Translations under genes and position numbers: made by a program
NCBI GenBank assembly: GCA_031263185.1
Contig: JAISGH010000103.1
Coordinates: 1 to 41,343 of the forward strand
Reading direction: 5' to 3'
Source of the DNA: Prevotellaceae bacterium
GTDB taxonomy: Bacteria > Bacteroidota > Bacteroidia > Bacteroidales > UBA932
DNA: 41,343 nt
Notes under the pieces: model-generated
The model's database searches: none
What the model saw: the letters and a program-made list of their open reading frames with translations, nothing else
Told to the model about the DNA's origin: nothing
Shown here: positions 1 through 17,507 of the stretch, one piece after another
Layout: the number at the start of each line of letters is the position of its first letter
Numbering within the stretch: the stretch's first letter is position 1

Positions 1-336
1 AACCGTAGATACGAATATTTTAATGTTCAGCAAGGATAAAAACCGACAACAAACGCAAGCTTGCGTGGTCAAAAAGGAAGGTATAAAAGATTTGAGCGTT
101 TATTTTAGACAAAACGCTGAATGCTGTAAATTCGGCCCTGACAGTTGGGTGATCCTTTCTCCCATTGAGCAACAGATAAAGGCTAAAATTGAGGCTGTTG
201 GAACACCGCTGAAGGATTGGGATATTCAAATTTATCGCGGTATTCTGACAGGATATAATGAAGCTTTTATCATTGACGGAAAGAAGAAAGACGAATTGAT
301 TGCAGAAGACCCAAAATCAGCCGAGATTATACGACC
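1..336. repeat. IR-L, the left arm of a long inverted repeat. It is cut by the window edge and lies inside the spare TRD cassette.
   Basis: nt 1-100 are the exact reverse complement of nt 1746-1845 (checked base by base). nt 141-336 match 1705-1510 with only a few mismatches (about 154, 230, 302, 304). nt 101-140 are a diverged 40-bp patch of equal length. Position x pairs with 1846-x. Confidence 0.9.
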
Positions 337-931
337 TATTTTACGTGGCAGAGACATAAAAAGATATGGTTACGATTTCGCTGATTTATGGCTAATCAAT
401 ACTCATAATGGCATAAAGGAAAAAGGAATAAAACCTATAAACATAGATGATTATCCTGCCATTAAAAAACACTTAGATAAATATTTTCCGGAATTGAAAA
501 AACGTGCAGACAAAGGCAATACTCCATACAATTTAAGAAATTGTGCTTATATCGAGGATTTTTCTAAGCAAAAAATAGTATGGTTAACAATAACAGATTC
601 GCCAAAATTCGCAATGGATTCATCCAAATCTATTTGCCTCAATTCGGTATTCTTCATGACAGGTAGTGACTATTTGTATATAATTTTAGCTTCACTAAAC
701 TCAAAACTAATCGAATGGTATTTTGACGGTATATGTGTATCGACTGGAGAGGGAACCAATAAATGGGAAAAGTTTGTGGTTGAGAGAATACCCATTCCAA
801 AACCAGATAAGCAAATCGAACAACAAATAGAGAAATTATTGTTATTAAAAAAACATAAAGAAATTGATAAATTGATTTATAATATGTACGGATTAAGCGA
901 AAAAGAGATAAATTTTATTGAAATTCTATAA
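2..931 (+). CDS. 5'-incomplete alternative C-terminal target-recognition cassette (TaqI_C-like) of the neighbouring methyltransferase. It is either a silent cassette or the tail of a gene that starts left of the window.
   Basis: The open frame runs from nt 2 (TVDTNILMFSKDKNRQQTQACVVKKEGIKDLSV...). The first ~112 aa are almost identical to residues in the C-terminal third of the 915..4286 protein (YRGILTGYNEAFIIDGKKKDEL). The remaining ~200 aa are unrelated in sequence but end in the same ...LSEKEI.FIE motif. No catalytic MTase motifs are in view. Confidence 0.75.
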   Translation, partial: TVDTNILMFSKDKNRQQTQACVVKKEGIKDLSVYFRQNAECCKFGPDSWVILSPIEQQIKAKIEAVGTPLKDWDIQIYRGILTGYNEAFIIDGKKKDELIAEDPKSAEIIRPILRGRDIKRYGYDFADLWLINTHNGIKEKGIKPINIDDYPAIKKHLDKYFPELKKRADKGNTPYNLRNCAYIEDFSKQKIVWLTITDSPKFAMDSSKSICLNSVFFMTGSDYLYIILASLNSKLIEWYFDGICVSTGEGTNKWEKFVVERIPIPKPDKQIEQQIEKLLLLKKHKEIDKLIYNMYGLSEKEINFIEIL

Positions 932-3900
932 ATTCTATCTCTTCTTCTGAAAGTTTGTATATATTATAAACTATGTCATCAATATTTTGATAATCTTCTA
1001 TTTGCAACATTTTTTCTATTTGCTGTTTAGTTTCGAAATCTGGAATAGGTATTTTTATGGGCTCAATAGCCTGCACACTTATTAATAAATCACCTGTTCC
1101 TGTTTTAGGTGAATCTTGTAGCATATAGTTTCCTAATCTAGAATTTAATATTCCAACCAGATATTGCAGGTTCTCTCCCGTTGCAAAACATGTACTATCA
1201 AGAACTGTATGCTTCTTTTCATCATAACAAAATCGAAGAATTGAACCTACTCGTTTCCACACAATTTTTTGTTTATCTAAATCCTCCCAATAACTTATCG
1301 AGTCTTGTGTCTCAAACCATTTATTATTAGTCCTTTTCCTTGCTCCTGCTTCGCCTGTCTGCTTCAGTCGGTCATAGCCAAAGCTCATAAGATGCTTTTT
1401 TACAGCCGGATACTGTTCGATATCTATTTTAAGACTTGGAAATGTTATAATTAAGTATAAATCAGCAAATTGATAACTGTATCTTTTAATATCTCGCCCT
1501 CTGAGTAACGGTCGTATAATCTCGGCTGATTTTGGGTCTTCGGAAATCAATTCGTCTTTCTTCTTTCCGTCAATGATAAAAGCTTCATTATATCCTGTCA
1601 GAATACCGCGATAAATATGAATATCCCAATCCTTCAGCGGTGTTCCAACAGCCTCAATTTTAGCCTTTATCTGTTGCTCAATGGGAGAAAGTATCACCCA
1701 ACTGTTGGAGCCAAAGCTGCAATCAGCGGCATTTTGCCTAACAAAAACGCTCAAATCTTTTATACCTTCCTTTTTGACCACGCAAGCTTGCGTTTGTTGT
1801 CGGTTTTTATCCTTGCTGAACATTAAAATATTCGTATCTACGGTTGCCGATTCGAATATTTTTACGCCGGCAAAGTCTATTAATTGGAGCGGATTGGTAT
1901 TTTCAGCAAAGAACCTCCGCGTATTTTCTCCATAACCTGCCCGCATCCATTTATTGGATGTTATGAAGCATAAATATGCTTGTGGTTTAAGTAGTTGATA
2001 GCCTCGTTCGTAAAACAGCGAGTATAAATCGCCCATGCTGTCAAATGTCTGATACGGACTTGGGATGTTTTTTTTATTTTCCTTTTTGGGTCCGTAAAGT
2101 TTTGACAATTCACCGCCGTTTTTTTGCAGCTGAACATACGGCGGATTGCCGATAATGATGTCAAAACCTTGCGTAACGCCAAACATCCGTTCAGCATCAA
2201 AAAACGGCGAAGTGGCGTTTGGGTTATAAGGATCCCAATCCGAAATTTTTTGTGCAGTGTCGTTGTCGTAGCCGATTTCTTTCAGTTTTTTGGCAATTTG
2301 TCCGCGCAGTTCGCGGTCTTTTTGCCGATATTTTGCTTTTGTTTCTGATGTGCGTGCGCTGAAATGCTTGTGCCGTACTACTGCAAGTTCTTTTTCGAGC
2401 GGAGCAATAATATCCATGCCAATAGTCAGTTGCGTCGGTTTGTCAAGTCCTGTGAGCGTGTTTGCTGCCACAAATTTGGTTTCGAGGTTTGGCAGCGGGC
2501 GTATTCCCAAATTCGGTTTTTCGGGGTTAGGGGTTTGCTCGCATACCAATGAAATAAAAAATCGCAGCTTTGCAATCTGCACAGCAATCGATTGAATATC
2601 AATACCAAAAATACAATTTTCAATCAAAAATAATTTTCGCCCATAATTCAGCTCGTTATTTTCAAATGCCTCCTCAATATTTTTAATGGCAAATTCACGC
2701 GCCTTTTCGTCTTCAATCTTTTCTGCCAGAGAAAGTTGCCGCTGTTTCCAGAGATTGTTATTAGGATCGAGCTTTTGTAAAACCTGCACCATTTTATTGA
2801 GAATACCCATAGGAAATGCACCCGAACCACAGGCGGGGTCAAGAATTTTGCAATTATCAAGAGCCGAAATCAATTTTTGAGTATTTTCTTTGTCAAAAGG
2901 ATTTTCGGAATTGTCGTCAAACAAAATTTTCAGGTTGTTTTCCAAATCATTTTCATTCAAAAAATCATTTTTCAAATATGCAATGAGCGATTCCTGCACC
3001 ATATAGTCCACAATTTCGCGGGGCGTGTAGAAACTGCCGGTCTGTTTGCGGGCGGTTGTTTGCGTTTCAGGATTATAGCTTGCCAAAAGATTTTCAAAAA
3101 CTTTTCCCAAAAGTTCAGGGTCAAGCGCAATTTCCACATCGACAGGCGTATTTTCTTCAATCGTGAAATTATAGGTTTGCAAAATATCAATCAATCCGCG
3201 AACTTTGTACGTTTTGCTTTTGGTATCGTAAATTTCATTTAAATCAACCGATTTTTCCTCATTAAAAAACAGAAAATCAGGAATTTTTAAAAGTTCTTCC
3301 TTATCTGTTCGATTTGAAAAACAGTCAATTCGTATTTCGTTTTCCTGTCCAATATTTTTATCCAGATTTTCAAAAAGCCCGCCGTTGAGAAAAGGAATAT
3401 TTTGTATGAGTTTGAGAAATCGCTCTTTGTCTTTGAAAAATCTTTCGTAGCGGTAAAAACCTTGAACACCGCTTTGCCGATTGACAAATTTTCTCTTTTC
3501 ACCCATTTCAGTATTAAGTGTGGCAAAAAAGAGATTTTGCAAAATTGCTTTATAATAAGTGCTCCCTGCTTTATCTTTGTAATTCAATATATTAGAAAGT
3601 TTTTGCCTGTCAAAAAAATCATTGTCTATTAATTTTTTCTGTTTCAAAAACCAGACAAACATCAATCGCGTAATCAGGCGAATAACCGCAGTTTCATTAC
3701 TGTTTTGCGGAAATTGCACATTTTGCAACGCCCAAAAATACCAGTTTGAAAGTTCTTTGAAAAATTCTTTAGTAAGCATTTCGACAGAAAATGCATCCAT
3801 CAATGTTTTGAGCGAAACTCCGTCGGTTAGCAATTTTGTAAATCGCTCAATTGCCGTATGGTAGTGTTGCGTTTCATCGCCAAACACAAATGTAAACCGT

Positions 3901-4286
3901 TTTGGCGAAGTTTCTTCGCCTTTTATGTCGGAAATAAGCGAAACCCGCCATGCCACCCCGTCGTCGAAAACGGCAAGCGCAGCGTCGAACACTCCCCAAC
4001 GCGGGTTGGTAAAGGTTTTTACAAGGTTTCGCAGCCCAACGCGGCGATGAACAACGCTTCCGCTGTTGAGCCTGAAATAGAAAAGCCCGATTTCAGCGTC
4101 GGGAGCGGAAAGCTTGCCGAGATAGTACGCCGTTTCGGTTTCGGTCGAAACGGCGAGCTGTTCGGGCGTTTGCCTCAATTCGCGCACTCCGAAAAGGTTG
4201 AGCAGCATAGCTTGCCAGGTATCGGCGCTGAACGCCGACTGAAAAATGGTCTGCAATTCTTCTTTTGAATACATTATCCTGTTCAT
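915..4286 (-). CDS. Large single-chain N6-adenine DNA methyltransferase, Eco57I/Type IIG-like gamma class, with a C-terminal TaqI_C-like specificity domain.
   Basis: 1123-aa ORF. Contains FYTPREIVDYMV, motif I ILDPACGSGAF, motif IV IIGNPPYVQL, and the TRD signature YRGILTGYNEAFII. Motif I precedes NPPY. No obvious PD-(D/E)XK motif was recognised in the N-terminal ~140 aa. Confidence 0.9.
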   Translation of the reverse strand: MNRIMYSKEELQTIFQSAFSADTWQAMLLNLFGVRELRQTPEQLAVSTETETAYYLGKLSAPDAEIGLFYFRLNSGSVVHRRVGLRNLVKTFTNPRWGVFDAALAVFDDGVAWRVSLISDIKGEETSPKRFTFVFGDETQHYHTAIERFTKLLTDGVSLKTLMDAFSVEMLTKEFFKELSNWYFWALQNVQFPQNSNETAVIRLITRLMFVWFLKQKKLIDNDFFDRQKLSNILNYKDKAGSTYYKAILQNLFFATLNTEMGEKRKFVNRQSGVQGFYRYERFFKDKERFLKLIQNIPFLNGGLFENLDKNIGQENEIRIDCFSNRTDKEELLKIPDFLFFNEEKSVDLNEIYDTKSKTYKVRGLIDILQTYNFTIEENTPVDVEIALDPELLGKVFENLLASYNPETQTTARKQTGSFYTPREIVDYMVQESLIAYLKNDFLNENDLENNLKILFDDNSENPFDKENTQKLISALDNCKILDPACGSGAFPMGILNKMVQVLQKLDPNNNLWKQRQLSLAEKIEDEKAREFAIKNIEEAFENNELNYGRKLFLIENCIFGIDIQSIAVQIAKLRFFISLVCEQTPNPEKPNLGIRPLPNLETKFVAANTLTGLDKPTQLTIGMDIIAPLEKELAVVRHKHFSARTSETKAKYRQKDRELRGQIAKKLKEIGYDNDTAQKISDWDPYNPNATSPFFDAERMFGVTQGFDIIIGNPPYVQLQKNGGELSKLYGPKKENKKNIPSPYQTFDSMGDLYSLFYERGYQLLKPQAYLCFITSNKWMRAGYGENTRRFFAENTNPLQLIDFAGVKIFESATVDTNILMFSKDKNRQQTQACVVKKEGIKDLSVFVRQNAADCSFGSNSWVILSPIEQQIKAKIEAVGTPLKDWDIHIYRGILTGYNEAFIIDGKKKDELISEDPKSAEIIRPLLRGRDIKRYSYQFADLYLIITFPSLKIDIEQYPAVKKHLMSFGYDRLKQTGEAGARKRTNNKWFETQDSISYWEDLDKQKIVWKRVGSILRFCYDEKKHTVLDSTCFATGENLQYLVGILNSRLGNYMLQDSPKTGTGDLLISVQAIEPIKIPIPDFETKQQIEKMLQIEDYQNIDDIVYNIYKLSEEEIEFIEFQ
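1510..1845. repeat. IR-R, the right arm of the inverted repeat, inside the expressed methyltransferase gene.
   Basis: Reverse complement of nt 1-336. It has a perfect 100-bp core at 1746-1845. Confidence 0.9.
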
Positions 4287-4320
4287 CTTAAAAATCTTAC
4301 TAAAATCATGATTCAGACAG

Positions 4321-7300
4321 TCAAATAAACGTTTCAGAAATTACAATATTTGGTTCGGTATTATCAATAGTCGATTCGGTCGAAACGGCTGTATAGTACT
4401 TGTCGTAGAGTTCATTTATCTGAATATCAATTTCATACTGTTTGTTTTTCATAATCTGCCTGTCGTTTTTAAGCTCGCGCGAAATGGTGCGGACTGTTTT
4501 TGCCAGCTGTGCGTAGATGCCCTGCTGAATATATTCACGAAGGCGCTTACAGCGACTGCGAATATCGTCATCTTCGGTTACCAGAGCATAACTTTGCAGA
4601 AACCGCTGCGCTTCGGCAGTGCCGCGGTCGTGCGATAATTCGTTCAAACTGCCGGTATCCTGCTGCGTAATACTTTCCATCTTAAATTTTTGCAAAGCAC
4701 GATTAACCTGTTCGTAATGAATCGATTCGGCATCTGCAAACGGCGCAGCCTGTTCCTCGCATTTTGCTTTCAAAATAAAAGCGGCTTCGAGGAAATCTAT
4801 CGGTTTTACTTCGCTTTGCGAAACGTTGTAATATTCTGTTTTTCTTGGCGATGAAACAAAAGCGATTGTTTCGTTGGATGCGTGGCGCACCGCGTCTGTA
4901 CATTTTCTTGCCACGCGGCTTTTCATCGGCAACGCCTTTATTTTTTTGTAAAGAGCACGGTCGGTATTGTACAGCTCCCGCACTTCGCGCAGCAGCTCCA
5001 ACTGTTTATCGACCTTGTCTTTGACTTTGGGGTTGAAAAGCTGAAATTCGCGAACAATTTCCTCCTTTGAATAAATCTGGGCATCTTCGCCCAAAGCCGA
5101 ATGAAATCCCTGCAACTTGATTAAAGCGTTGCGGTAGAGCTGAATTTGCGCATCGCCCTGCGCCGACGGATAAAACATATAATTATAGATTTCGCCTGCA
5201 ACCGAGCCGATACGGTTTACGCGCCCGATGCGCTGCATCAGTCGGGTTGCGTTCCAGGGCGAATCGTAGTTGACAATCACGTTTGCGCGGTGCAGATTGA
5301 CGCCTTCCGCCAGCACATCCGACGTGAGAAGAATATTGTATTTGTTGTCGAAATGTTCATAATTGGCGTCGAAGCAGCGGCGAATTGCGTCAAATTCGCG
5401 AGTGCGATTTACCGATGTAACTTCCAAAATATCGTGCCGCTGCAATTTTTCTATCAGATTTTTTTTCAGATAGTTGAGGGTATCTACGCTTTCCGAAAAA
5501 ACAACCACCTTTCCGGTTGGATTTTTTTGTTTGTCAAACAGCTCTGTTTTCAGTTTTTCGACGAACAAATCAAGCTTGGGGTCGTCGGTAATTTTGTCCC
5601 ACTGATTTTTCAGCTTAATCAGGCAATCGCGGTCGGCTTCAAGCATTGGCAGCAATTCTTCGGTAATTTCTGTTTCTTCTTCCGCTTCCGTATCTGCGAT
5701 TTTTTGTGGTTTGGCAGTAAAATCGTCGGGCGCAAAAACAATGTCCGCAGCGTCATAACCTTTTTCCACAGCGTATTCAATAATTCGGTCGAGTTCCCAA
5801 CCTTTTGCCTGCAAGTCTTTAATTTTCAATTCTGGCGCAACAATAATTTTGCCTTCTGCAAACATTTTAATCATATCGTTTGTAATACGCAAAAACGTAT
5901 CGAGCGATTTACGAAAGGCATCAAAGCTGCTTTCCAGACGTTTAACCATATGAACACGATATATTTCGGCAAGGTTTTTGCCGATATTGGCAGGATTTTT
6001 GAATTTCTTGCTGTGTTCCTCATTCAGAAACTCAACCGCACGGTATCGGGCATAGTGCAATTCGTTTGCCAGCACGTTTAATGTGCTGTAAAACAGCTCG
6101 TTAAGCTTGCCGTTTAATTTGTATGTCAAATCGTTGGGCGGTAATATGTCGGGGAATTTAATTTTTTGGTCGTCCAAATCGTGCTGATAATCCTCGTCGT
6201 TCATAATATTATGGCGGGTACGGCGAACGGTGATTTTATCGAGAGCCTGATTGCGGATTTCCTCATAAATGGCATCTATCTCGGCTGTGTCTGTCAAACG
6301 TTTGCGAGCTTTCATTATTTGGTTGTAGCGATCAATACGCGGCGCGAAAAATGCCTGTAAATTGCTTATTCCGGCTATGGTACAGCGTCGCGCATCCTGA
6401 AACAGCAGCATCAAATTGAGCAGGTCGTTCGGGCGATTATTCAAAGGGGTAGCCGAAAGCAGCATGATTTTTTTCCGTTCGCTTTTTATCAAACCGGCAT
6501 TATTGCGGGGCGACTTGCAAATCTGCTGCAATTCGTCGTATCGCGTAGTGCTGTCGCTGCGGAATCCGTGCGCCTCGTCAACAATTATCAGGTCAAATTC
6601 TTCTTTGGCCTTGTAATTGTTTTTGCCTTCAATCACTTTCGACAAGCTGCCATTGCTTACAAACTGCGCTTTTTTGCTGATTCCGAACCGCCGGAACGTA
6701 TCTTTCCAGTTGTCTTTCAATGCGGGCGGATAAACAACCAAAATATTGGTATTGCGTCCGTTTGCCTCTACAAATCGTTTTGCAATCATCGTTGCCACAA
6801 TAGTTTTACCCAAACCTACCACATCTGCAAGGAAAAAACCGTTGTGTTCGCAAAGCATCTGATAGCCCTGAATTACAGCATCGCTTTGATATTTCAGGTT
6901 GCGGATACCGTCGGGCAAAGCGGTAGAAAAATCATCTTCAATCTGGTCGCCGAAACTGTCAATCAACACCTTGATATACAATTCGTAAGGAGTGGGATAG
7001 ATGCCAATGTGGGTTTTAATTTTGCTTTTTTCAATATCATTTGCAGTAATCGGAATAGCTGTTTCCCACAGCTTATCAAATTCTTCCTTGCAGAAAGCCA
7101 CATCATCATAATCTTTCATAGCCACATTCAGCTCGTAACGTGGCGGTTCTGTCAGCCCCAATCCCGATTCCGAAATATTGGAAGACCCCATAATAACCCA
7201 GCCGTCGCTGTGCTGGGAATGAGTTTGCGGCAGGCAGAGGTAAAATTTGGCGTGTAAATTTTTTGTCGCATGAATTTTCATTTCCACTTTGCCTGTATGC

Positions 7301-7647
7301 AGGTCGTCGCACAGCTGTAAAATTCCCTGTTCAACCTCCGGCGCATAGCGGGCAGCCTGTACGTCGTTGATAAAATCCTGACTGTAAATCTCTTTTGCTT
7401 CTTCTTCATTGCCCAGCATCAGCATGGCGCGGTTATGCTTGCGAAAAATATTGTCGATATTGATTCCGACAAGAATTTGAATTTTCTGCACATTTGCAAG
7501 TTCTTCCCGCAGGCGAAAATAACCGGACGACCTGAAAAAACCAACAACAGCGTGAAAGCTGTGAAAATTTGCCATACCCTGCGCAATCCCTCCGAATTTA
7601 TCGAAGAGGGTGTTACCTGTCTGATTTGTAAAGAATTTTGAGGACAT
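4321..7647 (-). CDS. PLD-family (HKD) nuclease domain fused to an SNF2/SF2 helicase, followed by an uncharacterised ~300-aa C-terminal region.
   Basis: 1108-aa ORF. N-terminal HKD motif HAKFYL...GSSNIS. Helicase motifs LADVVGLGKT (I), IIVDEAHGF (II, DEAH), LLSATPLNN (III) and LAEGVNL...QRIGRVNRIG (V/VI). It lies 34 bp upstream of the MTase start on the same strand. Confidence 0.9.
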   Translation of the reverse strand: MSSKFFTNQTGNTLFDKFGGIAQGMANFHSFHAVVGFFRSSGYFRLREELANVQKIQILVGINIDNIFRKHNRAMLMLGNEEEAKEIYSQDFINDVQAARYAPEVEQGILQLCDDLHTGKVEMKIHATKNLHAKFYLCLPQTHSQHSDGWVIMGSSNISESGLGLTEPPRYELNVAMKDYDDVAFCKEEFDKLWETAIPITANDIEKSKIKTHIGIYPTPYELYIKVLIDSFGDQIEDDFSTALPDGIRNLKYQSDAVIQGYQMLCEHNGFFLADVVGLGKTIVATMIAKRFVEANGRNTNILVVYPPALKDNWKDTFRRFGISKKAQFVSNGSLSKVIEGKNNYKAKEEFDLIIVDEAHGFRSDSTTRYDELQQICKSPRNNAGLIKSERKKIMLLSATPLNNRPNDLLNLMLLFQDARRCTIAGISNLQAFFAPRIDRYNQIMKARKRLTDTAEIDAIYEEIRNQALDKITVRRTRHNIMNDEDYQHDLDDQKIKFPDILPPNDLTYKLNGKLNELFYSTLNVLANELHYARYRAVEFLNEEHSKKFKNPANIGKNLAEIYRVHMVKRLESSFDAFRKSLDTFLRITNDMIKMFAEGKIIVAPELKIKDLQAKGWELDRIIEYAVEKGYDAADIVFAPDDFTAKPQKIADTEAEEETEITEELLPMLEADRDCLIKLKNQWDKITDDPKLDLFVEKLKTELFDKQKNPTGKVVVFSESVDTLNYLKKNLIEKLQRHDILEVTSVNRTREFDAIRRCFDANYEHFDNKYNILLTSDVLAEGVNLHRANVIVNYDSPWNATRLMQRIGRVNRIGSVAGEIYNYMFYPSAQGDAQIQLYRNALIKLQGFHSALGEDAQIYSKEEIVREFQLFNPKVKDKVDKQLELLREVRELYNTDRALYKKIKALPMKSRVARKCTDAVRHASNETIAFVSSPRKTEYYNVSQSEVKPIDFLEAAFILKAKCEEQAAPFADAESIHYEQVNRALQKFKMESITQQDTGSLNELSHDRGTAEAQRFLQSYALVTEDDDIRSRCKRLREYIQQGIYAQLAKTVRTISRELKNDRQIMKNKQYEIDIQINELYDKYYTAVSTESTIDNTEPNIVISETFI

Positions 7648-7649
7648 AA

Positions 7650-7787
7650 TTATCTTTCTTTTTTTGCTGATACGAGTAAATCTTTTATTTCCACATTCAA
7701 CAATTCTGCGATTGTATGTAGTGTTTCAAGCGATGGTTGTACTTCATTGGTACACCATCTTGATACCGCTGTTTCATTCTTGCCCAA
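7650..7787 (-). pseudogene. 5'-truncated XRE-family helix-turn-helix gene remnant (controller-like).
   Basis: The minus-strand frame reads (TTG)LGKNETAVSRWCTNEVQPSLETLHTIAELLNVEIKDLLVSAKKER*. This is the recognition helix and tail of a typical ~65-aa XRE HTH. An in-frame TAA sits immediately upstream, so the first ~20 aa are missing. Its stop lies 2 nt before the helicase ATG. Confidence 0.6.
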
Positions 7788-7875: not shown

Positions 7876-7904
7876 GACCTCACCCCCAGCCCCTCTCCAA
7901 AGGA
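7876..7904. repeat. Single-arm copy of the GC-rich palindromic element family seen complete at 14521-14625.
   Basis: gacctcacccccagcccctctccaaagga versus gacctcaccccctgcccctctccgaagga at 14521, with 27 of 29 positions identical. It sits at the junction between the AT-rich and GC-rich regions. Confidence 0.6.
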
Positions 7905-7964: not shown

Positions 7965-7972
7965 CAAAGATA
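7965..7972 (-). promoter_or_regulatory. Candidate Bacteroidetes -7 box (TATCTTTG on the minus strand) pointing into the XRE-remnant/helicase/MTase operon.
   Basis: Plus-strand CAAAGATA is the reverse complement of the TAnnTTTG consensus. The -33 element is poor. Confidence 0.3.
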
Positions 7973-9238: not shown

Positions 9239-9985
<747 letters not shown>

Positions 9986-10549
9986 GCGGAGTTCAGATTT
10001 GAAGTTCAACAAAATTGTACTGCACGATATATAATCTTATGCTGATTACAAACATGTAAAAATACAAAAATATCTTGAATAAGGGCTATCGTCAAAATGA
10101 GTAATGAGTTTAAAAGTGGCAAAATTATATGAAAAAATATATATTATTGAACGTCATATATTTGCTGTTTTTTTGCAGCGCTTGTATCTTTACGGCTATA
10201 TGCTATACTTCGCGTGGCGTGGTTTTGTGCATTGCCCGTTAGGACATTCATATCAATAGAATATGGGCGTCACCGAATTTTTCAAGCGCAAGGCTTTTGA
10301 GCACTTTTGCCATATTTCCTTGCACTTATATCACGTAATGTACAATATGCTGATTTATATATAATTACTACTTTTTCAACAGACCCTATTTAAAGCGACT
10401 ATTTGAAATACACCCGCACCTAAAAATATCGCAGAAAATAGCTGTATATACTTACCCATCAGGATTGTTAAATTTTTAGTGGTATGGTTGAGCCGCTCAA
10501 TAAATGAATTTTGAGCCGCTGAGGAAACCACAATTAAAATCTTTCGCTT

Positions 10550-14064: not shown

Positions 14065-14655
14065 ATGAAAGAAATAGTGGATATGCTGCGCGAAGGGAAA
14101 TATTCGTGCGTTATCAGAAACGGAGAAATCCGCACGTTCACGCGGCCGGGCGTAATTGACGCGTACTGCCTGCTGAAAAATGAGCCGGCTTTTCTGAAAG
14201 GAGCGTCGGTAGCCGATAAGGTTGTCGGGAAAGGCGCTGCTGCGCTCTTTGCCTTGGGCGAAGTAAGCGAGCTTTACGCAGACGTAATCAGTACGCCGGC
14301 GCTTGATTTGCTGAAAAAAACACCTGTCAAGGCGCTTTACAGGGAAGAAGTTCCTGCTATTAAAAACAAGTTGAATACGGGATTATGCCCGCTTGAGGCC
14401 AAGTGCGCCGGCAAAAATTCCGCCGCCGACATTCTTCCCCTTATTGATGACTTTATGAAAGAAAAATTACAGAACAAATGCGAATCAGTGGTAGAAAAAG
14501 TTGAATTACAATTTTGTAAAGACCTCACCCCCTGCCCCTCTCCGAAGGAGAGGGGAGCAAAGCCGCAACAGCTACCCTCGTGTACCGACTCCCCTCTCCT
14601 TCGGAGAGGGGCAGGGGGTGAGGTCTCAACCCTTAATTCGCAGAACAAAGTATAA
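14065..14655 (+). CDS. DUF1893 (TM1506-like) domain protein whose 3' end reads into a palindromic repeat element.
   Basis: MKEIVDMLREGKYSCVIRNGEIRTF...ADKVVGKGAAALFALGEV..YADVIS.PALDLL resembles the DUF1893 family as I recall it. The last ~45 codons (DLTPCPSPKERGAK...) are encoded by the repeat at 14521-14625. Confidence 0.7.
   Translation: MKEIVDMLREGKYSCVIRNGEIRTFTRPGVIDAYCLLKNEPAFLKGASVADKVVGKGAAALFALGEVSELYADVISTPALDLLKKTPVKALYREEVPAIKNKLNTGLCPLEAKCAGKNSAADILPLIDDFMKEKLQNKCESVVEKVELQFCKDLTPCPSPKERGAKPQQLPSCTDSPLLRRGAGGEVSTLNSQNKV
14521..14625. repeat. GC-rich nested palindromic element (REP/MITE-like).
   Basis: Arms 14521-14556 and 14590-14625 are perfect 36-bp reverse complements. Each arm contains its own palindrome cccctctccGAAGgagagggg. 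The spacer is 33 bp. Confidence 0.9.
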
Positions 14656-17348: not shown

Positions 17349-17432
17349 CGCGAATTGTTAACTGTATCTAAACTGTATCTGAGATTTTGATACAGTTATT
17401 AATATCTGTATTTCAACGGCTTATTCTATAAG

Positions 17433-17507
17433 TCGGGGTGACTGGATTCGAACCAGCGGCCACGCGCCCCCCAGACGCGTACTCTAACCGGGCTGAGCTA
17501 CACCCCG
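17433..17507 (-). tRNA. tRNA-Pro (anticodon GGG).
   Basis: Minus strand CGGGGTG-TA-GCTC-AGCCCGGTTA-GAGT-A-CGCGT-CTGGGGG-GCGCG-...-GCTGG-TTCGAAT-CCAGT-CACCCCG-A. All four stems pair. The T-loop is TTCGAAT and the anticodon loop is CU-GGG-GG. No CCA is encoded. Confidence 0.9.

What the first reader, a model, noticed from the sequence alone, without database searches (positions are those of the whole stretch)
915..7787. Unclassified two-gene ATP-dependent R-M-like defence module: PLD-nuclease/SNF2-helicase fusion plus a giant switchable methyltransferase
Seen in sequence: a co-directional, tightly spaced operon. The XRE remnant stop lies 2 nt before the helicase ATG, and a 34-bp gap separates the helicase from the MTase. 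The helicase protein combines an HKD (PLD) nuclease motif, a full SNF2 motif set and an unassigned ~300-aa tail. The partner is an Eco57I-type m6A methyltransferase in which I cannot recognise its own nuclease motif.

Established comparisons: SauUSI-type Type IV enzymes have a PLD + helicase + reader architecture. Class 1 DISARM combines SNF2 (DrmD), PLD (DrmC) and an adenine MTase (DrmMI), but it also needs DrmA and DrmB (DUF1998), which are absent from the visible sequence.

Inference: the methyltransferase specificity appears switchable (previous findings). A nuclease with its own independent sequence specificity would then be self-lethal after switching. The PLD-SNF2 protein therefore probably borrows target recognition from the MTase, as Res does from Mod in Type III systems. 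That would be a Type III-like logic built from non-homologous parts.
Basis: partly seen in the sequence, partly recalled or inferred. Interest (0 to 1): 0.8.

Follow-up and report, generated by a model that had tools for sequence, protein, structure and literature searches.

The report
Helicase-nuclease plus switchable methyltransferase restriction pair
This is a real, very widespread but never characterised two-gene restriction-modification module of gut and oral Bacteroidales. A motor-nuclease protein is almost always encoded directly upstream of a DNA methyltransferase, and the methyltransferase can change its target-recognition part by DNA inversion.

Summary
Two minus-strand genes are 34 nt apart. 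The first (7647..4321) encodes a protein with one PLD/HKD nuclease motif, an SNF2 motor and an unassigned tail. The second (4286..915) encodes an Eco57I/gamma-class m6A methyltransferase with a TaqI-type recognition domain (TRD). A truncated XRE gene lies upstream. A silent inverted TRD cassette lies downstream, flanked by a 396-nt inverted repeat.

The pairing is not chance. In 66 of 67 species-level relatives with enough downstream DNA, the methyltransferase directly follows the helicase. No DISARM, BREX or MANTIS partner genes recur nearby.

All nuclease and ATPase motifs of the helicase are invariant in 77 orthologues.

New here: the first ~160 residues of the methyltransferase match no known domain and are inherited with the helicase (rho 0.89). 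The methyltransferase body is not (rho 0.34-0.41) and occurs in at least two swapped classes. This fits a docking module for the helicase.

Most likely this is a Type I/ISP/III-like ATP-dependent restriction enzyme built from different parts.

It is not wholly new. PADLOC's Type IIG profiles match the methyltransferase, and two papers noted the adjacent helicase without testing it. No restriction activity has been shown. A conserved D..DxK motif in the N-domain leaves open a second nuclease.

The parts
7650..7787 (-). Truncated XRE/HTH_3 gene (45 aa), probably the remnant of a controller protein. Its stop lies 2 nt before the helicase ATG.
   Evidence: It aligns to residues 32-68 of the 68-aa HTH upstream of the helicase in L001, L002, L060, L053 and L005. 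Intact HTH genes also precede distant relatives in P. nigrescens and P. distasonis.
4321..7647 (-). PLD-nuclease / SNF2-translocase protein (1108 aa), the proposed restriction subunit.
   Evidence: Pfam. PADLOC best hit is 'HKD+Snf2' at 1.5e-39. Foldseek hits include RapA, ZorD, SMARCAD1 and SauUSI 7clg_B. It is conserved next to the MTase in 66 of 67 loci.
7003..7647 (-). N-terminal PLD domain (aa 1-215) with a single HKD motif (aa 132-157, nt 7177-7254).
   Evidence: PLDc_2 hit. H132, K134, G154, S155, S156, N157 and E172 are invariant in 77 orthologues. Only one HKD motif is present per chain.
5158..6900 (-). SNF2-type SF2 motor (aa 250-830) with a ~290-aa helical insert between the two RecA lobes.
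   Evidence: GxGKT at 278-282, DEAH at 357-360, SAT at 398-400 and QxxGRxxR at 805-812 are invariant or nearly so.
4321..5070 (-). C-terminal tail (aa 860-1108), unassigned. The AlphaFold2 model predicts a small beta-sheet followed by a helical bundle.
   Evidence: No significant Pfam or PADLOC match. AF2 secondary structure. It is the most divergent part of the protein, with mean pairwise identity 47% against 68% for the motor.
915..4286 (-). Gamma-class N6-adenine DNA methyltransferase with C-terminal TRD (1123 aa). It is labelled Type IIG by the PADLOC profiles.
   Evidence: CamA, BseCI and TaqI MTases are the nearest solved relatives.
3792..4286 (-). MTase N-domain (aa 1-165). It is an orphan alpha/beta domain that is co-inherited with the helicase. 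It is proposed as the helicase-docking module and carries the candidate D101...D120-I-K122 site.
   Evidence: No Pfam, PADLOC, PDB-profile or Foldseek match. AF2 pLDDT is mostly 75-96 in this region. R114, S116, D120 and R130 are invariant, D101 is D or E in all 55, and K122 is K in 45 of 55. Identity correlates with the helicase at rho 0.89. The breakpoint lies at about aa 160. The domain is found only at the N-terminus of ~1000-1270-aa proteins, in 301 clusters.
1797..3791 (-). Helical region (aa 166-400) plus the catalytic MTase domain (aa 401-830).
   Evidence: Residues 171-401 match positions 240-397 of the PADLOC Type IIG profiles. Motif I and NPPY are invariant. This part occurs in two or more classes that are swapped relative to the helicase.
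915..1796 (-). Active TRD (aa 831-1123, TaqI_C type).
23..931 (+). Silent alternative TRD cassette, convergent with and overlapping the MTase 3' end by 17 nt.
   Evidence: TaqI_C at 2e-14 and the comparison. The same two TRD types occur in relatives in both arrangements.
1..396 (.). Left arm of the inverted repeat. It runs off the window start.
1450..1845 (.). Right arm of the inverted repeat, inside the MTase gene (aa ~814-945).
397..1449 (.). Invertible segment. Flipping it exchanges the variable halves of the two TRDs.
   Evidence: This follows from the geometry. A conserved serine invertase follows the silent cassette in 10 related loci, counting L003 and L011 (the same contig) once. None is present in the window, so it is presumably left of the window start.

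Best explanation
This is a two-subunit, ATP-dependent restriction-modification enzyme.

The methyltransferase protein is the M+S subunit. Its single TaqI-type TRD reads a short asymmetric site, and its gamma-class catalytic domain puts m6A on one strand, marking self DNA.

The PLD-SNF2 protein is the R subunit. It has no DNA reader of its own. It docks on the methyltransferase, most likely through the methyltransferase's orphan N-terminal ~160-aa domain. When the complex sits on an unmethylated site, the R subunit uses ATP to translocate or slide on double-stranded DNA.

Each chain has only one HKD motif. Two helicase chains must therefore meet to form a PLD active site, as in BfiI, SauUSI and MtsD. 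This would tie cleavage to two sites or two complexes, and so protect hemimethylated daughter DNA.

Inversion between the 396-nt repeats, by a serine invertase encoded beyond the window edge, swaps the TRD. It changes modification and restriction specificity together, because both depend on the same TRD.

What is shown: the domains, the motif conservation, the near-obligate gene linkage, the modular co-inheritance and the inversion geometry.

What is inferred: the physical complex, the ATP-driven translocation, cleavage by the PLD site, the requirement for two sites and active inversion in this strain.
For: **Linkage**
- In 66 of 67 species-level relatives with at least 1 kb downstream, the MTase directly follows the helicase, with a median gap of about 28 nt. 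Six shorter contigs show the MTase start.
- Reciprocally, in 2 of 3 sampled loci with an N-domain MTase, an intact PLD-SNF2 gene lies directly upstream. In the third, both genes are decayed.
- The same HTH-helicase-MTase order holds in relatives whose helicase is only 30-35% identical.

**No other conserved partners**
- The only other recurrent neighbours in the +/-10 kb flanks of the 80 loci are a serine invertase, a DUF1016-like gene and AAA_14.

**Purifying selection**
- The HKD, Walker A, DEAH, SAT and motif VI residues are invariant in 77 helicases. NPPY and motif I are invariant in 55 MTases.

**Modularity**
- The pairwise identity of the helicase tracks the MTase N-domain (Spearman 0.89). 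It does not track the helical region (0.41) or the catalytic region (0.34).
- N-domain identity to the window is about 48% in both MTase body classes (about 55% and about 31%), with the breakpoint near aa 160.
- In L089 the MTase body is 46-48% identical although the helicase is only about 30% identical and the N-domain is undetectable.

**The N-domain replaces the usual nuclease**
- It has no match to any PADLOC Type IIG profile, Pfam family, PDB profile or PDB fold.

**The helicase lacks an identifiable reader**
- The tail has no significant match.
- The fold resembles SNF2 motors and the PLD-helicase SauUSI.

**Tolerance of single genes**
- In Viscerimonas, an intact helicase persists after loss of the MTase.
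- Pin17FIII alone methylates GGYGAB in E. coli (PMC5608340).

**Precedent**
- MtsD of MANTIS is a dimeric PLD-SF2 effector that acts downstream of a methyltransferase complex on hemimethylated asymmetric sites.
Against: - No restriction phenotype, complex or cleavage has been shown for any member of this family.
- The sequence relationship of Pin17FIII to this window was not tested directly. Only the architecture matches.
- The N-domain is encoded right next to the helicase gene. Co-inheritance could therefore reflect physical linkage and a recombination hotspot at the conserved 'AFSVE' junction rather than a protein contact.
- The N-domain carries a well-conserved D101...D120-x-K122 motif on a beta-hairpin. 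The MTase might therefore cut DNA itself, as in true Type IIG enzymes, with the helicase as an accessory.
- All parts of the helicase correlate equally with the N-domain. The tail is not singled out as the interface.
- The full-length AF2 model is of modest quality (pLDDT 66).
- An orphan intact helicase (L001) could also mean that the helicase has an independent function.
Confidence: 0.6

Rival explanations
1. The MTase protein is a true Type IIG enzyme and the helicase is an accessory. The N-domain would be a divergent PD-(D/E)XK nuclease that cuts near the recognition site. The PLD-SNF2 protein would then be a second effector. It might process or degrade the cut DNA, remodel DNA to expose sites, or load or activate the enzyme.
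For: - PADLOC Type IIG profiles match the MTase at 4.6e-129.
- REBASE lists Pin17FIII as Type IIG.
- D101 (D or E) and D120 are conserved in all 55 helicase-linked MTases and K122 in 45 of 55. They lie at the start and end of a predicted beta-hairpin, as in PD-(D/E)XK sites.
- The Type IIG enzyme Cj0031 of C. jejuni is described without a helicase partner and restricts phage. Milman et al. describe some of these invertible genes as homologous to Cj0031.
Against: - The first 170 aa match none of the Type IIG nuclease profiles, no Pfam family, no PDB profile and no PDB fold.
- K122 is replaced by R, G, N, D or A in 10 of 55 close relatives, and by T, E or Q in more distant ones.
- The N-domain travels with the helicase rather than with the MTase body whose geometry it would have to match.
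- The helicase's own nuclease motif is invariant. That would be unexpected for a mere remodeller.
Confidence: 0.22
2. The two genes belong to independent systems that travel together. The helicase would be an autonomous SauUSI-like (Type IV or other) ATP-dependent nuclease. The MTase would be a solitary, phase-variable epigenetic regulator (a 'phasevarion'). They would be co-located in a defence island without forming a complex.
For: - SauUSI is among the structural matches and shows the highest sequence identity in the list, 18%.
- An intact helicase exists without an MTase in Viscerimonas.
- Split or solitary MTases of the wider family occur without a helicase (L085, L086).
- Phase-variable MTases often act as regulators.
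Against: - The same order and a ~28-nt spacing are kept in 66 of 67 species across several phyla. This is far tighter than defence-island co-location.
- No modification-reader domain is detectable in the helicase.
- The N-domain of the MTase co-diverges with the helicase.
- The two genes decay together in L092.
Confidence: 0.08
3. This is a reduced or variant Class 1 DISARM or BREX-related system, whose remaining genes lie beyond the left edge of the window.
For: - DrmD and DrmMI profiles give hits at 1.8e-35 and 2.2e-22.
- The window ends inside the locus.
Against: - NCBIfam scores are far below the cut-offs: DrmD 156 against 610, and PglX 74 against 500.
- In relatives with a full 10 kb on both sides, no DrmA, DrmB/DUF1998, PglZ, BrxC or DUF499 family recurs.
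- Annotated relatives show only HTH, helicase, MTase and TRD fragments.
Confidence: 0.03

Closest known systems
Type ISP restriction-modification enzymes (LlaGI, LlaBIII)
   Same: - The set of activities is the same: nuclease, SF2 dsDNA motor, gamma-class m6A MTase and a single TRD.
- The site is asymmetric and only one strand is methylated.
- Cleavage needs two enzymes to meet (PMC3874165).
   Different: - Here the activities are split over two polypeptides.
- The nuclease is PLD/HKD rather than Mrr-type PD-(D/E)XK.
- The motor is SNF2-like.
- The coupling element would be an orphan N-domain on the MTase.
- The TRD is invertible.
Type I R-M (HsdR + HsdM + HsdS)
   Same: - A separate R subunit (nuclease plus SF2 motor plus C-terminal region) depends on the methyltransferase for recognition.
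- The MTase is gamma-class.
- Specificity switches by inversion of TRD cassettes (PMC7672463, PMC9881135).
   Different: - M and S are fused and there is a single TRD, so the site is asymmetric rather than bipartite.
- The R subunit has PLD rather than PD-(D/E)XK, and an SNF2 core.
MANTIS / Gao_RL / Type-2 BREX-related systems (MtsD effector)
   Same: - An N-terminal PLD plus SF2 helicase effector with one HKD per chain acts downstream of an adenine MTase that hemimethylates short asymmetric sites.
   Different: - MANTIS needs the AAA+ ATPase MtsA and MtsB to load its MTase, MtsC; in the related BREX-like systems that MTase is, from my recollection, a DUF1156-type enzyme. None of these is present here.
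- The MTase here is an Eco57I/TaqI_C type with its own TRD.
Type IIG enzymes (MmeI, Eco57I, Cj0031; REBASE Pin17FIII)
   Same: - The MTase is matched by Type IIG profiles from residue ~170 onwards, and it has the same helical, MTase and TRD layout.
- Pin17FIII of P. intermedia 17F has the same locus architecture and gives m6A at GGYGAB.
   Different: - The N-terminal ~165 aa do not match the Type IIG nuclease domains.
- A PLD-SNF2 gene is an almost obligate partner.
Class 1 DISARM
   Same: - SNF2 helicase (DrmD-like), PLD nuclease (DrmC-like) and an Eco57I-type adenine MTase (DrmMI-like). Milman et al. found programmed inversions in DrmMI genes as well.
   Different: - No DrmA or DrmB (DUF1998) is present.
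- PLD and SNF2 are fused.
- All profile scores are far below the family cut-offs.
SauUSI (Type IV) and CglI/NgoAVII (ATP-dependent Type II)
   Same: - A PLD nuclease is combined with an SF2 ATPase, and ATP-dependent cleavage requires dimeric PLD.
   Different: - SauUSI has its own modified-cytosine reader and no MTase.

Membership tests
Type IIG R-M | N-terminal endonuclease domain in the same polypeptide as the MTase | tested here: inconclusive
   Residues 1-170 match no PADLOC Type IIG profile, Pfam family, PDB profile or PDB fold. However, a conserved D101...D120-x-K122 motif lies on a predicted beta-hairpin.
Type IIG R-M | Gamma-class N6-adenine MTase followed by a TRD | tested here: met
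   Eco57I at 3.9e-39 and TaqI_C at 4.2e-10. PDLC03601 at 4.6e-129. Motif I and NPPY are invariant.
Type IIG R-M | Cleavage at a fixed distance from the site, without ATP | not testable with these tools
   This needs biochemistry.
Type ISP R-M | Single polypeptide: Mrr nuclease, SF2 helicase, MTase, TRD | tested here: not met
   There are two ORFs separated by 34 nt. The nuclease is PLD and the motor is SNF2-like.
Type III R-M | Beta-class Mod MTase, plus Res with an SF2 motor and a C-terminal PD-(D/E)XK nuclease | tested here: not met
   The MTase is a gamma-class Eco57I type. The nuclease is an N-terminal PLD.
Type I R-M | Separate HsdR, HsdM and HsdS, with a bipartite site from two TRDs | tested here: not met
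   M and S are fused, with one TaqI_C TRD. No HsdR/HsdS family hit was found.
Class 1 DISARM | DrmA helicase and DrmB (DUF1998) present in the operon | tested here: not met
   They are absent from the visible window. They are not among the recurrent families in the +/-10 kb flanks of 80 related loci, nor in annotated relatives. The left flank of this window itself is unseen.
Class 1 DISARM | DrmD and DrmMI family membership by curated profile | tested here: not met
   NF038317 DrmD scores 156.5 against a cut-off of 610. The PADLOC DrmMI hit is only partial.
BREX | PglZ and BrxC present, and PglX membership | tested here: not met
   NF033452 PglX scores 73.6 against a cut-off of 500. No PglZ or BrxC family recurs in the flanks. 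One PglZ response-regulator gene in L091 is not part of the locus.
MANTIS / Gao_RL / Type-2 BR | AAA+ ATPase (MtsA), MtsB and a DUF1156-type MTase accompany the PLD-helicase | tested here: not met
   No such genes are in the window or in related loci. The MTase is of the Eco57I type.
MANTIS / Gao_RL / Type-2 BR | Effector with an N-terminal single-HKD PLD domain fused to an SF2 helicase | tested here: met
.
SauUSI-type Type IV | C-terminal modified-base reader domain, and no cognate MTase | tested here: not met
   The tail has no reader-family match. An MTase is an almost obligate neighbour.

The most novel reading that the evidence does not exclude
This may be a distinct, widespread class of ATP-dependent restriction-modification enzyme. 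It would be functionally a 'split Type ISP' or 'Type I with fused M-S'. A PLD-SNF2 restriction subunit would be recruited by a dedicated, co-evolving ~160-aa adaptor domain at the N-terminus of the methyltransferase. That adaptor would sit where Type IIG enzymes carry their nuclease. The helicase-plus-adaptor unit would be a portable module that has been recombined onto at least two divergent methyltransferase bodies, with specificity further varied by TRD inversion.
Probability: 0.5. Interest if true: 0.65.

Novelty: new variant of a known kind. Interest (0 to 1): 0.55.

Why it matters
Most are gut, rumen and oral Bacteroidales, with transfers to Helicobacteraceae, Alphaproteobacteria, Akkermansia and Lentisphaeria.

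From the PADLOC and NCBIfam matches, annotation pipelines would label only the methyltransferase ('Type IIG') and leave the helicase as a generic 'helicase-related protein'. If the pair is one enzyme, three things follow.

- A common barrier to phage and to genetic manipulation in Bacteroidales is mis-described.
- The unexplained extra methylation motifs reported for P. intermedia 17F get a simple explanation, namely TRD inversion.
- The PLD-helicase effector seen in MANTIS and DISARM-like systems would be shown to work with a minimal single-protein recognition partner. That would make it a much simpler system for studying how such effectors are licensed by unmethylated sites.

The modular co-inheritance of the helicase and the MTase N-domain gives a concrete, testable interface.

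Tried and rejected
- **MTase N-domain.** Sequence, profile and fold searches all gave nothing significant. I tried PADLOC and Pfam at permissive E-values, a profile search of PDB sequences and Foldseek of a good AF2 model against the PDB. The nuclease question therefore stays open.
- **Helicase tail.** There is no significant Pfam or PADLOC hit. Mirror-tree analysis did not single the tail out as the partner of the N-domain.
- **Rosetta-stone fusion.** I looked for the N-domain fused to a helicase. In 1.84 billion representatives the N-domain is always at the N-terminus of ~1000-1270-aa proteins or fragments. No helicase fusion was found.
- **Literature.** Seven full-text searches found no named defence system for this pair. 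'Leveraging defense system modularity' was irrelevant.
- **DISARM, BREX and MANTIS membership.** Rejected on curated cut-offs and missing partner genes.
- **Recombinase in the window.** None was found.
- **Sigma-70 promoter scan.** Uninformative, with fewer hits than in shuffled sequence. This is expected for Bacteroidetes.
- **Pin17FIII.** I could not obtain its sequence to test homology directly. The plasmid collection gave only a P. nigrescens relative whose helicase is 34.5% identical.

Full report
**1. What is in the sequence**

The region holds two long ORFs on the minus strand.
- The upstream ORF, 7647..4321, encodes 1108 aa.
- The downstream ORF, 4286..915, encodes 1123 aa.
- They are separated by 34 nt.

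The upstream protein has three recognisable parts:
- a PLDc_2 domain (aa 101-194);
- ResIII/SNF2-related N-lobe motifs (aa 252-402);
- Helicase_C (aa 697-814).

It has exactly one HKD motif, H132-A-K134...G154-S-S-N157. The last ~250 residues match no Pfam or PADLOC model significantly.

The downstream protein has an Eco57I methylase domain (aa 557-811), N6_Mtase/MmeI_Mtase signals and a TaqI_C recognition domain (aa 926-1058). Motif I lies at D483 and NPPY at 714-717. By sequence, its nearest solved relatives are the adenine methyltransferases CamA, BseCI and TaqI.

Upstream, the 45-codon ORF 7787..7650 ends 2 nt before the helicase ATG. It aligns to residues 32-68 of an intact 68-aa HTH_3 protein that sits in the same place in five related loci. 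It is therefore a truncated controller-type gene.

The island (1 to ~8000) has 33-46% G+C, against about 43-59% in the rest of the window. The rest of the window is ordinary Bacteroidales chromosome: PolA, GH95, GH88, a TonB-dependent receptor and a LacI-family regulator.

**2. The switch**

A 396-nt inverted repeat has arms at 1-396 and 1450-1845, 90% complementary. It brackets the 3' end of the methyltransferase gene and a convergent + strand ORF (23..931). That ORF is a second TaqI_C recognition domain.

The two recognition domains are about 93% identical over the ~130 residues encoded by the repeat. They are only about 33% identical over the remaining ~180 residues. Inversion of 397-1449 would therefore exchange the variable halves.

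The left arm runs off the window, and no recombinase is present in the window. In ten related loci (counting L003 and L011, the same contig, once), a conserved serine invertase (63-73% identical among loci) follows the silent cassette.

The same two recognition-domain types recur in other species in both arrangements:
- same as the window: L012, L018, L068;
- swapped: L027, L028, L031, L065.

In addition, 27 of 80 related contigs end 2.0-4.6 kb downstream of the helicase, as the window does. This is what mixed orientations do to short-read assemblies.

Active inversion in this particular strain is inferred, not shown.

**3. Is the pairing more than chance?**

A scan of one genome per species found at least 430 genomes that encode a relative of the helicase. 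Eighty loci were kept (52-69% identity). Most are Bacteroidales, but Helicobacteraceae, Alphaproteobacteria, Akkermansia and Lentisphaeria also appear.

Forward association:
- In 66 of the 67 loci with at least 1 kb downstream, a homologue of the methyltransferase, including its N-terminal 390 residues, starts directly after the helicase. The median gap is about 28 nt.
- Three loci carry a ~1.1-kb inserted gene between the two.
- Six shorter contigs show the start of the methyltransferase.
- The one exception, L070, has a truncated helicase.

Reverse association:
- Of three sampled loci holding methyltransferases with this N-terminal domain, two have an intact PLD-SNF2 gene directly upstream.
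- The third shows both genes in pieces.

Relatives whose helicases are only 30-35% identical keep the same HTH-helicase-methylase order. Inverted methylase fragments also follow in P. nigrescens, but not in P. distasonis.

Clustering all flanking ORFs of the 80 loci showed few recurrent partners: the serine invertase, a DUF1016-like gene and an AAA_14 gene. No DrmA, DrmB, PglZ or BrxC was found.

**4. Which catalytic sites are under selection?**

Across 77 helicase orthologues, the following are invariant or nearly so:
- PLD site: H132, K134, G154-S-S-N157, E172;
- motor: GxGKT, DEAH, SAT, QxxGRxxR.

In the 55 linked methyltransferases, motif I and NPPY are invariant.

The nuclease, the motor and the methyltransferase are therefore all maintained.

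**5. The methyltransferase N-terminus**

Residues 171-401 align to positions 240-397 of the PADLOC Type IIG profiles. Residues 1-170 match nothing:
- no PADLOC profile;
- no Pfam family at E up to 10;
- no PDB sequence with a 21-sequence profile;
- no PDB fold below E = 0.001, although the AlphaFold2 model is good (mean pLDDT 83, and mostly 75-96 in this domain).

In 1.84 billion representative proteins the domain defines only 301 clusters. It is always at the extreme N-terminus of ~1000-1270-aa proteins or their fragments.

It is a conserved alpha/beta domain. R114, S116, D120 and R130 are invariant, D101 is D or E in all 55, and K122 is K in 45 of 55. D101 and D120-I-K122 lie at the start and end of a predicted beta-hairpin. 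That is the geometry of a PD-(D/E)XK site.

**6. New result: modular inheritance**

I compared pairwise identities over 55 helicase/methyltransferase pairs. The helicase correlates:
- strongly with the N-domain (Spearman 0.89; 0.84-0.86 for each helicase region);
- weakly with the helical part of the methyltransferase (0.41);
- weakly with the catalytic part (0.34).

The methyltransferase bodies fall into at least two classes, about 55% and about 31% identical to the window. The N-domain is about 48% identical in both, with the change at about residue 160.

In the P. distasonis plasmid relative, the body is 46-48% identical although the helicase is only about 30% identical and the N-domain is no longer detectable.

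So the helicase and the N-domain form one evolutionary unit, onto which different methyltransferase bodies have been recombined. This fits an adaptor through which the helicase docks. Simple linkage is the alternative, since the N-domain is encoded next to the helicase gene and is followed by a highly conserved junction.

**7. The helicase fold**

The full-length model is of moderate quality (pLDDT 66). Its structural matches are SF2/SNF2 motors (RapA, SMARCAD1, the Zorya protein ZorD and chromatin remodellers), RIG-I-like helicases (MDA5, LGP2) and the PLD-helicase restriction enzyme SauUSI (7clg_B; E = 7.5e-10). SauUSI has the highest sequence identity in the list, 18%.

PADLOC's best profile is an unnamed 'HKD+Snf2' model (1.5e-39), followed by DrmD. 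All NCBIfam scores are far below their cut-offs:
- DrmD: 156 against 610;
- DpdE: 135 against 500;
- 'phospholipD_antiphage': 125 against 1100.

**8. Mechanism proposed**

The methyltransferase is the recognition and modification subunit. It has one recognition domain, so it reads a short asymmetric site and methylates one strand. This is the pattern reported for Pin17FIII, which gives m6A at GGYGAB.

The PLD-SNF2 protein is the restriction subunit. It has no reader of its own and is recruited by the methyltransferase at unmethylated sites.

The single HKD per chain means that two chains must come together to make an active site. This is established for BfiI, SauUSI and MtsD. It would naturally tie cleavage to communication between two sites or two complexes. 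Type III, Type ISP and MANTIS all use such a solution for the hemimethylation problem.

Two observations fit an R subunit that is harmless without its partner and an M subunit that is self-sufficient for modification:
- an intact helicase persists after loss of the methyltransferase in Viscerimonas;
- Pin17FIII alone methylates in E. coli.

I put this model at about 0.6.

The main rival, at about 0.22, is that the N-domain is a divergent nuclease. The protein would then be a true Type IIG enzyme helped by the helicase.

**9. Comparison with known systems and novelty**

The pair works most like a Type ISP enzyme split into two chains, or a Type I enzyme with fused M and S. It uses a PLD nuclease and an SNF2 motor in place of the usual parts. 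Its effector resembles MtsD of MANTIS/Gao_RL and the HKD-Snf2 effector of Type-2 BREX-related systems. The AAA+ loader and the other MANTIS proteins are absent. It fails the membership tests for DISARM, BREX, MANTIS, Type III, Type ISP and SauUSI-type Type IV.

It is not unknown.
- PADLOC's Type IIG profiles match the methyltransferase, and the P. intermedia paper reports that REBASE assigns Pin17FIII and its neighbour as Type IIG.
- Johnston et al. 2017 described the same architecture in P. intermedia 17F: a 3354-bp RM gene, a convergent 918-bp ORF and an upstream SNF2/RAD54 helicase. They wondered whether the helicase explained two extra methylation motifs (PMC5608340).
- Milman et al. 2023 listed invertible 'Type II RM' genes with an adjacent PLD+SNF gene (PMC9881135).

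Seven full-text searches turned up no paper that names the pair, tests restriction or assigns a role to the helicase. I therefore rate it as a new variant of a known kind, with interest 0.55.

**10. Limits**

- No experiment exists for any member of the family.
- The complex could not be modelled here.
- The sequence of Pin17FIII could not be compared directly.
- The left flank of this locus is outside the window.

Noticed in passing
window 7878-7898 (-), 14523-14543 (-), 14603-14623 (+): A 21-nt G-rich repeat, GGAGAGGGGCTGGGGGTGAGG, occurs three times, where none is expected by chance. Two copies form an inverted pair near 14.5 kb. One copy sits just upstream of the truncated XRE gene, so a small dispersed element may have disrupted that gene.
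   Followed up: partly
window 9239-10012 (-), repeat array 9556-9681: An OmpA-family ORF contains a long Asn/Asp homopolymer run. It is encoded by a GAT/GAC/AAT triplet array, which could be a length-variable tract.
   Followed up: no
P0343: This 1815-aa protein matches the MTase N-domain (query residues 78-163) in six separate stretches. It appears to carry tandem copies of this otherwise N-terminal-only domain.
   Followed up: no
L005-L084 and window position 1: 27 of 80 related contigs end 2.0-4.6 kb downstream of the helicase, inside the TRD and inverted-repeat part of the MTase. The window also ends there. This is consistent with assemblies breaking at an actively inverting segment.
   Followed up: partly
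L001 10001-15295; L002: In Viscerimonas tarda the helicase is intact. The MTase is reduced to a 117-aa N-terminal remnant lying after an inserted AAA_14/DUF4143 gene. This is an orphaned restriction subunit.
   Followed up: partly
L037 13292-14410; also L045, L049; upstream of the helicase in about six loci (e.g. L005 8742-9863): A ~372-aa gene resembling DUF1016/YhcG-type PD-(D/E)XK proteins is inserted between the helicase and MTase, or sits just upstream. The family assignment is from memory and was not scanned.
   Followed up: partly
L092 6001-10666: This is a decayed locus. The N-domain MTase is truncated and the SNF2/ResIII fragments are split into several small ORFs on the other strand. 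The two genes seem to decay together.
   Followed up: no
window 7965-7972 (-): TATCTTTG matches the Bacteroidetes -7 promoter element TAnnTTTG (consensus recalled from the literature). It lies upstream of the XRE remnant and the operon. It was read by eye, and the sigma-70 scan is uninformative here.
   Followed up: no
L090 (P. nigrescens NZ_CP082843.1 379667-390856): This distant relative has an intact HTH gene abutting the helicase start, and two inverted Eco57I-domain fragments downstream separated by an ATP-binding protein gene. It appears to be a multi-cassette version of the switch. Its helicase N-terminus gave no PLD hit.
   Followed up: partly
window 17432-17507 (-): A tRNA-Pro (GGG) gene lies between a TonB-dependent receptor gene and the GH95 gene. 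It is unrelated to the finding.
   Followed up: no
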